In this document: positions 16,613 to 19,651 of the stretch, one piece after another
Layout of the letters: each line of letters starts with the position of its first letter
Numbering within the stretch: the first letter of the stretch is position 1
Assembly (NCBI GenBank): GCA_951406725.2
Contig: OX597820.1
Span: 10,974,001-11,038,000, forward strand
Length of the DNA: 64,000 nucleotides
Source of the DNA: Octopus vulgaris
Taxonomy: Eukaryota
Direction of reading: 5' to 3'
Notes under the pieces: model-generated
Seen by the model: the letters and a program-made list of their open reading frames with translations, nothing else
What the model was told of the DNA's origin: nothing
The model's database searches: none
Made by a program: the position numbers and the translations under genes

Positions 16613-17087
16613 TCCTTAACCTAGCTACTTAACAGTGGAACTGAACTCAAACAATGTGGTTTCAAAGCAAGCGTCTTGACCACACGGACGCACCAGCGAG
16701 AATCATTTCCTTTAAAACTCTTATAACTTTACTGATAAATCAACTCGACCTCGACAGAGTTTGAACTCAGAACGAAATGCCACTATGTATTTTGCCCGGC
16801 TTGCTAACGATTCTGCCAGCTCGCCGCAGAAGCTTTATGTGTAAGAATAATACTGGTTTCGGATTTAGACACTCTGCTTGATGAGAGTTACACAACAAAA
16901 GCTGCCATGAAATTAATTAGTGACGCAATTTCTTAGAAACACAACAGGAACAACAGCGAAGTTAATTACGATGTGAGATTTAAAAATAGTAATTTTCTAA
17001 TTTATAAATCAGTGACCAGTTATCACTTTGAAAACTATATATTCTGAACGGGAATTTGGCAGCGCGACCTCTAGCCGAAAAATTATT

Positions 17088-17130
17088 CTGTGCTGATGAA
17101 GGGAAATAACCCGGAAATCATGATACACAG
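17088..17130 (+). ncRNA. Minimal type I hammerhead ribozyme motif (Penelope/retrozyme type) within repeat 16972-17295
   Basis: CTGTG-CTGATGA-aGGGaaataaCCCg-GAAA-TCATGA-TA-CACAG: stem I CTGTG/CACAG, both core boxes present, palindromic stem III. Confidence 0.7.
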
Positions 17131-19651
17131 ATATTGTTTTGAGCTGAGTGGGGTACTTGATTCCCTTGTTCGAAAATATAAGGACACAGATCATGTTGTA
17201 TAGACAGCTGGAGACGATGTCTCCTGGGGCTAAATTACAACAACATTCGTCCTAAGCCAGGACTGCCATGTTATGTTGGCAAACAGTCTTTACTACAATT
17301 ATTCTGGTATCCTACCATTCAGCCGTATCTTGTTTTCCGATAATGTCAGTTCCTTTTGATGTTTAATAAACGTGGTTAGATTTCCAAAGAAATTACAGGT
17401 ATACAATTACAAGGTTACGTGTATGTTAATAGACATGTAGCAATGTCGTCTGGAACCGCTTATAATCCGCACTTACTTACACCGAGACACAGGTATCTGT
17501 ATTTAATTTAAATATTGAATTGACGGAAATTTAATATTTAAGTGTGTTGACCAAGGTGACAAGCTGTGGTTCGGAAAAATCAGAAATCCGGAAAACCTTT
17601 GGTACCAAAGGTTCCGGAAAATCAATATTGTGCCTGTAGTGCATATCTTACCGATTTTGGAGAAATGAAAGTAAAAGGTGACCACATGCGGAATCGAACT
17701 TAAGACATACAATGTTGAAACTAAATAAAGTACGGTATTTAATCTTTCCAATCTTTCTGCAAATTTCATTTAATTACTTGAGATAATATTGATACCAAAG
17801 TTCCAGACGTAGTAAATTTTGACAAGAGCTTTTGAAAATATTGAATATGTCACTGGAATATTCCAAAGACTATACACATTTTTTTCTATAATTGAATTTC
17901 TGAACATTCTGTTATGTTATTTTCATTTCTATATATTATATTTTCTTTGCACATCGCATCTGTGCACTTTTCTTCTCTTCAGATCAAAACTGTGGCTGCC
18001 ACATTATTATATAATAGAATGTAACGGAATAGAAGTAATGACAGCGCGTTTCCGGTAAATCTTATTTGCAAATTCCATTCTAAAGACAGGAAGATGCGAA
18101 AGCAACCATTTCAAAGTGACATTTAGATCGATCTTGTTCATGAAATTGTTTGTTTTTTTAATAAAAATTACATCTGCTTCTATCCATAGAAGTTAAATTT
18201 AAAATTACTACAGATTCATACACCCATATATTCGTGCATCTAACGTATGCGTGTTTCAAATACTTCCTACCGTATTGTCTAGAAGCAAATTAAAAATTAA
18301 ATGAAGCAGATTAAATTACATAAACAAATACACAGATTCTTTCGATGTAACGAGTGAACCTCTTGGCGGTAAGACGAACTGCTAAAACGTCAGCCAAATA
18401 TCCCTCATCAAGGTTACATAGGATAAGGTGATCCTATCGATACGATTTCAAGAAAAAGAAACAGAAATGATTAAAGATGTGACCTCTATGATCATGCGTC
18501 GGCTCAGTTAAGACTGCTCTTGGTTGAAAAACAACAGAAGCCAGAAATTTCTTGCTCATTTGTGTGTGAAGACCTGAAGCATGATTTCGGAATAATACCC
18601 TGTTGGTTTTTGCTCTGAAGGAAAATACATTTAAACAGAACACATATATGCAAATTCAACCGCTACCTAAACCCTTTGCTAATACTAGCAGCTAAAGCTC
18701 TCGATTTGTAACCACGTTCAGTTCGGCTGCACGGCAACTTGGACAACTATCTTCTCCGGATTAACAACTGTTTTGTGAGTTAATTCGGTACACAGAAGTT
18801 GCATGGAGGCTCATTTCAAATAAATATATATGTATGTGTATATATTTGTATCTGTGTTCAATCCCTTAACTATCACCTCTTGACAACAAGAGTTGGTTTG
18901 TTTGCGAAGTCGTAACTTAGTGGTTCGGCAAAAAAAAACTAATAGAATAAATAACCGACTTAAAAATAAGTGCTGCAGACTATCTGTTCGTCTAAACTCT
19001 TCGAGGCCGCACAACAACGACTGAAACAAGGAAAATATAAAATCTAAAGGATTTCTTTAAAATTCTTTGCTTTGTTTCCTTTGCTTGTTTGGTCAATCGC
19101 GACCACAAGTCTCTAGAAGCACATTTCTCTGTCGGTAGAATTCCCTTATCAACACCGTTTCAGTCATTTGCTGTAAATATGCACAGCCATGGCTGAATGG
19201 AAAGAAGACTGCTTCCCAGCCATCCAACATTATGGCTTTTGTTTCACCTTTAGCAAGTGTTTCCTGTAGCTTTCGGCTGATCAAAGCCTTGTGAGTGGAT
19301 TTGGTAAACAGAAAGAAAACCATCGTATCTGTGTCTGTGTCTGTGTGTGTGTGTGTGTAATACATCAAGTACAGGTCATCACCAACGAGTAAAAACTGTA
19401 TAAACACATAATGAGAGACAAGTACGTGACAAAATACCGGAAGAAGTCTAACTCCTCCTCAGTTGTCGACTATTAATTACTCCCTATTTCGAGCTTTCAT
19501 ATATCTACATGGTATACATATAAGATTCCAATACCTTATGAGTAAAATCCAATAGTATTTAAAATTGGTTATTCCAAGTATAGAGTTTATACACATCGTT
19601 ATTGAATCAAGGTTTTTTTTTAAGTGACCTAAAAATAGGTCAAATTGAAAA

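What the first reader, a model, noticed from the sequence alone, without database searches (positions are those of the whole stretch)
16972..17295. Hammerhead-containing ~350-nt repeat that is circularly permuted between copies
Seen: the order here is A (tgtgagattt.aaaatagtaattttctaattta), hammerhead 17088-17130, B (cccttgttcg...ggcaaaca.tctttact). At 54293-54481 the order is B, ~30 nt, A. Established: non-LTR retrozymes are short hammerhead-bearing repeats that form circular RNAs, and PLE minimal hammerheads with palindromic stem III can cleave as dimers. Inference: a tandem or circular monomer of about 350 nt.
Basis: partly seen in the sequence, partly recalled or inferred. Interest (0 to 1): 0.7.

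Follow-up and report, generated by a model that had tools for sequence, protein, structure and literature searches.

The report
Penelope-copied hammerhead retrozyme, mismatched stem II
This is one old copy of a 353-base non-coding jumping repeat with a predicted self-cutting RNA motif, and its apparent circular permutation comes from copies that all end at two fixed points of a head-to-tail unit, the footprint of the Penelope-type retrotransposon enzymes that likely paste it; the kind is already known.

Summary
16969-17298 is a single arm of a 353-nt non-coding monomer carrying a type I hammerhead, with the cut predicted after A17125. The 54293-54481 copy is half of a head-to-head pair (54152-54481) inside a 13-nt duplication. 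In 80 genomic loci, 139 of 149 arms end at two sites about 57 nt apart, and 53 of 64 head-to-head pairs use one of each. 37 of those 53 have 8-18-nt target duplications. This is the published Penelope 'tail' signature. Long arms run into the previous unit's tail, never into a Penelope ORF, so the unit is non-autonomous. Three related families keep the fold through compensatory changes, including the core pair C3-G8/U3-A8 and a re-written palindromic loop III, while position 10.1-11.1 is often mismatched. No circle or cleavage was shown; RNA reads mirror the genomic copy profile. This locus has one hammerhead and looks like a decayed copy. The scan has already reported this kind many times on other DNA of this genome. 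Verdict: new member of a known kind (non-LTR retrozyme).

The parts
16969..17298 (+). Single arm of the 353-nt monomer, monomer positions 1 to ~328-331; its 3' end is at the inner fixed end (site Y)
   Evidence: 92% identical to the L007 unit
16969..17001 (+). Segment A: end of the previous unit's tail, up to the outer fixed end (site X)
17034..17182 (+). Long predicted rod extending hammerhead helix I (monomer ~66-214); predicted, with compensatory changes between families
17087..17131 (+). Type I hammerhead: helix I 17087-92/17126-31, CUGAUGA 17093-99, A10.1 (17100) opposite G11.1 (17113), helix II GGG/CCC, GAAA 17114-17, palindrome AUCAUGAU 17117-24, predicted cut 17125/17126
17163..17296 (+). 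Segment B: predicted hairpins up to site Y; the most abundant part of the family
16964..16968 (+). Possible 5-nt target duplication AATTA, second copy at 17297-17301; weak, could be chance
   Evidence: sequence
54152..54292 (-). Left arm of the head-to-head pair, monomer ~184-328, Y end; no hammerhead
54290..54481 (+). Right arm of the pair, monomer 196-353 plus 1-36 (B, linker, A), X end; no hammerhead
54139..54151 (+). 13-nt target-site duplication, left copy; right copy at 54474-54486
22063..22235 (-). Truncated arm of the older sister family, next to TA repeats

Best explanation
The finding is a decayed copy of a 353-nt non-coding, hammerhead-bearing repeat whose insertions end at two fixed sites, and which was likely pasted by a Penelope-type reverse transcriptase/GIY-YIG endonuclease acting in trans. 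Shown in the DNA: a head-to-tail unit, two fixed 3' ends about 57 nt apart, head-to-head pairs with one arm from each end, 8-18-nt target duplications, scattered 5' truncation and no ORF. Inferred: a source array was transcribed as a multimer; its hammerheads cut as dimers through the palindromic loop III; and the monomer was circularised (about 55% likely; otherwise the uncut multimer was the template). The endonuclease would make two staggered nicks, and each 3'-OH would prime reverse transcription at one of the two sites, helped by about 2 nt of microhomology. The two truncated cDNAs would then be joined 5' to 5'. An arm longer than about 297 nt runs into the previous unit's tail, which gives the A-hammerhead-B order at 16969.
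For: 139 of 149 arms in 80 loci end at X (71) or Y (68); 53 of 64 head-to-head pairs are X+Y. Target duplications in 37 of 53 such pairs against 1 of 150 shuffled pairings, mode 12-13 nt, mean microhomology 1.9 and 1.6 nt. 40 of 46 long arms continue into the previous tail; in the two sets not selected for that junction 13 of 17 pass position 34 (one search list). No stop-free stretch above 48 codons on the sense strand. No homology between the monomer and the termini of the PLEs in 30 GIY-YIG loci plus 20 wider regions. Circular fold z = -7.5 against 100 shuffles. 23 of 69 pairs have a two-sided change across three families. All 6 helix I pairs and the 3-8 core pair covary across four families. 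Core pair: focal C3-G8 in 95 of 100 listed; sister U3-A8 in 26 of 38 and C3-G8 in 0. Two RT start sites defining a tail and priming on both strands are published for a PLE (PMC11167929). ORF-intact 781-aa RT + GIY-YIG elements exist in this genome.
Against: No partner PLE was identified. Raw RNA reads (three unstranded runs, about 6% of each read, species label possibly not the window's) show a 3'-biased profile like DNA contigs, mostly 86-95% identity, and no pile-up of ends at the cut site. A10.1 opposite G11.1 breaks the conserved G-C pair and may weaken cleavage. Sister subgroups with C3.A8 or U3.G8 also spread, and HHR mutants do not impair PLE insertion in vitro (PMC11167929). Copies are nearly star-like (3% of variants shared between loci, 8% between arms, 19% between units of one arm, the last mostly from L007, L010 and L002), so one-circle copying could not be shown. 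Covariation counts reflect about four lineages, not independent sequences. In vitro PLE initiation was reported without homology to the target, unlike the weak microhomology seen here.
Confidence: 0.85

Rival explanations
1. Same mobilisation, but the template was an uncut linear multimer from a tandem source locus; the ribozyme is weak or regulatory and no circle is needed.
For: No excess of 5' ends at the cut site (hazard 0.147 per 10 nt against 0.158-0.173 just downstream). Mismatched 3-8 subgroups amplified. Unprocessed RNA is the main PLE substrate in vitro (PMC11167929). 8 of 9 Xenopus retrozyme dimers did not cleave (bioRxiv 10.64898/2026.07.22.740005). Apart from L007 no arm exceeds 2.2 units.
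Against: Compensatory changes in the core pair, helix I and the palindrome imply selection for catalysis. Mussel 350-390-nt relatives of this kind make abundant circles (PMC7229834, section 14). No long source array was seen, though none was searched for specifically.
Confidence: 0.35
2. The repeat is the pseudo-LTR of an autonomous coding Penelope element, and the copies are its 5'-truncated insertions.
For: It has all PLE insertion hallmarks (tail, inversions, tandem parts). The PLE sample was limited to 30 of 150 scored GIY-YIG matches plus 20 regions.
Against: Long arms run into the previous tail, with no fixed 5' boundary and no shared upstream sequence. No PLE ORF abuts an arm: 1 of the 90 fetched focal loci (80 distinct) had an RT fragment, 467 nt outside the target duplication.
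Confidence: 0.08
3. A DNA-level minisatellite or MITE-like element spread by recombination or a DNA transposase, with an incidental hammerhead.
For: Head-to-head pairs look like inverted repeats. Some arrays (L007, L010) share variants between units, which suggests local duplication after insertion.
Against: The two outer ends of a pair differ (X against Y), 5' ends are scattered, duplications vary from 8 to 18 nt, and the RNA fold covaries.
Confidence: 0.03

Closest known systems
Metazoan non-LTR retrozymes (Cervera and de la Pena 2020, PMC7229834; Li, Clavereau and Pollet 2026, bioRxiv 10.64898/2026.07.22.740005)
   Same: Non-coding ~350-nt unit (mussel 350-390 bp), one type I hammerhead per unit, tandem monomers to multimers, highly paired fold, proposed PLE mobilisation.
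   Different: Most copies here are truncated head-to-head pairs with two fixed 3' ends and target duplications, which I did not see described in the parts read. Helix II opens with a mismatch. Circular RNA is not shown here.
EN+ Penelope-like elements, pLTR with hammerhead and tail (PMC11167929, PMC4209133, PMC8557442)
   Same: Tail between two RT start sites, inverted 5'-truncated copies, partial tandems, palindromic helix III, C3-G8/U3-A8 covariation.
   Different: No ORF. The tail is ~57 nt rather than 30-40. Helix II has 3 bp and helix I 6 bp plus a rod, not the 7-8-bp helix II of minimal PLE hammerheads.
Non-autonomous Chlamys PLEs such as MRC1 (PMC8557442, passage)
   Same: Non-autonomous PLE derivatives with multicopy head-to-tail insertions.
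   Different: Those resemble an autonomous family at the 3' end; no such partner was found here.

Membership tests
Non-LTR retrozyme | Short non-coding unit (about 150-400 nt) in tandem copies | tested here: met
   353-nt period, 2.1 and 3.1 units; longest sense stop-free stretch 48 codons
Non-LTR retrozyme | Type I hammerhead in each unit | tested here: met
   10.1-11.1 is a mismatch
Non-LTR retrozyme | Highly self-paired predicted circle | tested here: met
   z = -7.5; covariation across families
Non-LTR retrozyme | Expression as a monomeric circular RNA | tested here: inconclusive
   Unstranded 150-nt reads follow the genomic profile, with no end pile-ups; the library type cannot reveal small circles reliably
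Non-LTR retrozyme | Self-cleavage in vitro | not testable with these tools
   needs a transcription assay
Non-LTR retrozyme ('active' by the Li et al. rule) | [quoted passage not shown] | tested here: not met
   The focal locus has one hammerhead and the 54-kb locus none; the rule is met by other loci such as L002 and L007
Autonomous EN+ Penelope-like element | ORF with RT and GIY-YIG between pLTRs | tested here: not met
Penelope-type insertion footprint | Optional tail (two fixed 3' ends) and inverted 5'-truncated arm | tested here: met
   139 of 149 arms; 53 of 64 pairs
Minimal PLE hammerhead (PMC4209133) | Long helix II (7-8 bp), short helix I, G10.1-C11.1 after a bulged nucleotide | tested here: not met
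   Helix II 3 bp, helix I 6 bp; the position pairs A-U in a relative, so it reads as a mismatch, not a bulge
Dimer-acting hammerhead | Palindromic helix III and loop | tested here: met
   UCGCGA, CCGG or CUAG, CAUG and CUCGAG in four families; dimer cleavage itself untested

The most novel reading that the evidence does not exclude
A clan of four related ~350-360-nt retrozyme families records, in one genome, a hammerhead that stays under catalytic selection while tolerating A.G, A.A and C.A at its normally invariant 10.1-11.1 pair. It steps from U3-A8 through a mismatched C3.A8 source to C3-G8. The focal family also left the TA microsatellites its relatives target (1 of 135 arms against 26 of 79), at the same time as its X-site sequence changed from a TA-like to an AAT-like end. 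The RNA's own priming site would then steer where a Penelope enzyme inserts.
Probability: 0.2. Interest if true: 0.6.

Novelty: new member of a known kind. Interest (0 to 1): 0.3.

Why it matters
The kind is known, and this scan has reported it repeatedly in this genome, so the locus itself adds little. The family gives countable genomic support for Penelope-type mobilisation of animal retrozymes, which the papers read propose from co-occurrence and pLTR homology. It also supplies natural hammerhead variants with a mismatch next to the core, which descriptor searches that demand a 10.1-11.1 pair reject (PMC3088659). The contrast in target sites between sister families offers a cheap in vitro test of whether the template RNA or the endonuclease chooses the insertion site.

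Tried and rejected
Rfam at gathering threshold: 0 matches. Partner PLE: none among 30 GIY-YIG loci and 20 wider regions. Apparent hits in L197, L198 and L202 were separate retrozyme insertions, and the RT fragment in L070 lies outside the target duplication. One-circle test by private variants: inconclusive. Excess of 5' ends at the cut site: none. The cluster of 5' ends at monomer 68-71 was set aside because several of those arms overlap their partner through the rod's self-complementarity. Selection for restoring the palindrome in decayed copies: not significant (odds ratio 2.6, p = 0.11), so the window's AUCAUGAU fits two CpG decays. Sequencing runs: no RNA holder listed. An empty-site allele at the focal locus was not seen in four contig sets; flank-insert junctions were present in two. 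No RNA reads covered the unique flanks of the focal locus (the species match is uncertain). A tree of hammerhead regions did not resolve the C3.A8 group as a clade (100 of 112 rows kept). Literature searches 'octopus + retrozyme' and 'cephalopod + hammerhead ribozyme' listed no paper that appears to describe this family, and a search for 10.1-11.1 variants returned only irrelevant papers. The Lunse et al. 2017 paper on dimeric PLE hammerheads was not held and is recalled only. No supplements were read; Repbase-type annotations in them could already name this family.

Full report
Observation. The window holds A-hammerhead-B at 16969-17298 and B-linker-A at 54290-54481. The second is the right arm of a head-to-head pair. 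Its left arm runs 54292 to 54152 on the minus strand, and CTAATTTACTGAT stands on both sides. The hammerhead reads helix I UCUGUG/CACAGA, core CUGAUGA, A, GGG-AAAUAA-CCC, G, GAAA, palindrome AUCAUGAU, cut predicted after A17125. Rfam does not score it at gathering threshold.

Family. The window lies in a 2.8-Gb animal genome (G000). The focal query gave 2490 first-look candidates, of which 40 were scored, and a 29-nt hammerhead pattern has 294 exact matches against 0 for the control. Sixty 10-kb regions picked by a fixed rule held 2 focal loci, about 9,000 loci genome-wide with a wide interval of 1,100-34,000. The unit is 353 nt; arrays of 2.1 and 3.1 units occur. Arms differ from the column majority by 5.5%, or 4.0% outside CpG, and share few variants between loci (3%), so this is an old burst from one or a few sources. 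The longest sense stop-free stretch is 48 codons. The majority folds as a circle at -118.7 kcal/mol against -77.5 +/- 5.5 for 100 shuffles, with a long rod (monomer ~66-214) carrying the hammerhead at its tip.

Insertion anatomy. I fetched 90 loci in three sets and dropped 10 overlapping duplicates. Of 149 arms, 71 end at monomer 14-49 (peak 31-33, site X), 68 at 316-349 (peak 327-332, site Y) and 10 elsewhere. Of 64 head-to-head pairs, 53 join one X and one Y arm (19 of 21 and 16 of 18 in the two less biased sets). 37 of the 53 carry an 8-18-nt duplication against 1 of 150 shuffled pairings; mean overlap with the element ends is 1.9 and 1.6 nt, a figure somewhat inflated by picking the best-scoring repeat. 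5' ends are scattered, without excess at the cut site; in the set chosen on segment B only 12 of 48 arms reach the hammerhead and 3 reach the previous tail. So 'circular permutation' is two fixed 3' ends plus variable truncation on a head-to-tail template. Two internal RT start sites bounding a tail, and extension from both strands, are published for a lizard Penelope element (PMC11167929, parts 1-2 of 4 read). Tails and inverted truncated copies are general PLE marks (PMC8557442, passages).

Autonomous or not. 40 of 46 long arms continue into the previous unit's tail. Set 1 was selected for that, but in sets 2 and 3 13 of 17 pass the junction and the other 4 stop just before it (one search list). 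Upstream flanks of single arms share only unrelated repeats. The genome has ORF-intact RT + GIY-YIG elements of 781 aa, but in 30 loci plus 20 wider regions no PLE terminus matched the monomer. The hits were separate insertions of this or related repeats. One focal locus has an RT fragment 467 nt outside its target duplication. The mobilising PLE is therefore inferred, not identified.

Is the ribozyme real? Three relatives align with it: an older sister of 352 nt (83% identity between majorities, 10% internal divergence; window copy at 22063-22235), a 360-nt family and a fourth family, which I compared only over the hammerhead and B-plus-tail region. Across the first three, 23 of 69 predicted pairs change on both sides. 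Across all four, every helix I pair and the 3-8 pair covary; slid controls give at most 3 such pairs against 8. These are about four lineages, not 12 independent events. With positions 3 and 8 left open, the focal family gives C3-G8 in 95 and U3.G8 in 5 of 100 listed (194 in all). The sister gives U3-A8 26, U3.G8 8, C3.A8 3, A3.A8 1 of 38, 7 of them in one local cluster. U3-A8 is a known active swap (PMC3088659 section 8; PMC4209133 parts 1-2 of 4). Loop III changes sequence but stays palindromic, as expected for dimer cleavage. Position 10.1-11.1 pairs in only 3 of 12 rows (A-U); it is A.G here, A.A or A-U in the sister and C.A in the fourth family. A natural U.U mismatch there is published (PMC3088659); these combinations I did not find described (one search was uninformative). 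Against obligatory catalysis: C3.A8 copies made up 10 rows in a set drawn with L103, with linked differences but no supported clade. Only 6 of 72 sampled focal hammerheads keep every majority feature with a palindromic loop.

Expression. No listed holder is on record as RNA. Three raw RNA runs added by species label gave hundreds of reads over the repeat, on both mate directions, mostly 86-95% alike. Depth was about five times higher over B than over the hammerhead, as in DNA contigs, and there was no pile-up of ends. This fits passive transcription of many decayed copies inside host RNAs and says little about small circles. About 40% of reads over the core carried A6C, and about a third carried a changed cut-site base.

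Targets. Focal arms rarely abut TA repeats (1 of 135), unlike the sister (26 of 79; background 5%) and the 360-nt family (most ends in 9 loci). Focal duplications often begin AAT or AA, matching the X-site sequence. Either a different partner endonuclease or priming by microhomology would explain it; this is untested.

Mechanism and verdict. Shown: unit, ends, pairs, duplications, non-coding state, covariation. Inferred: transcription of a tandem source, dimeric cleavage, circularisation (about 55%), two-nick priming by a Penelope RT-EN. The focal locus has one hammerhead and cannot release a monomer by itself. It fits the non-LTR retrozymes (PMC7229834, passages and sections 14 and 17; bioRxiv 10.64898/2026.07.22.740005, parts 1-3 of 5). 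New member of a known kind; interest 0.3.

Noticed in passing
It matched 1 of the 50 PLE loci (L204).
   Followed up: partly
window 7138-7315 and 7373-7581: Inverted pair of the 3' terminus of the Penelope family in L201/L202 (76-87% identity); a further piece lies at about 21980-22077. That terminus ends TTCTAA next to TA repeats, like site X of the retrozyme clan: a weak lead to a mobiliser.
   Followed up: partly
L195:430-5672 (G000 C16): Penelope element with a 781-aa RT + GIY-YIG frame, a second ~359-codon open frame upstream and 456-nt direct repeats 99% alike; many 781-aa copies in the genome. Related copies carry U3-A8 hammerheads.
   Followed up: partly
L225-L236 (G000): Fourth related family with C10.1.A11.1, fully re-paired helix I and CUCGAG loop; several 3' ends abut TA repeats.
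   Followed up: partly
monomer 36-75 (window about 17004-17043): An AGTGAC/GTCACT hairpin followed by a TATATA tract is kept in all four families; possibly the promoter region that earlier notes link to Tx1 LINE targeting. Not tested.
   Followed up: no
L103:1784-1830: A 3-nt duplication inside a C3.A8-type sister hammerhead recreates a canonical CUGAUGA core in this one copy.
   Followed up: no
window 31094-31836, 41592-42091, 45183-45413, 48450-49519; and 8458-8892, 29033-29446, 40827-41256, 46883-47300: Two other abundant repeat families with internal ~184-nt tandem units or ~430-nt bodies; not classified.
   Followed up: no
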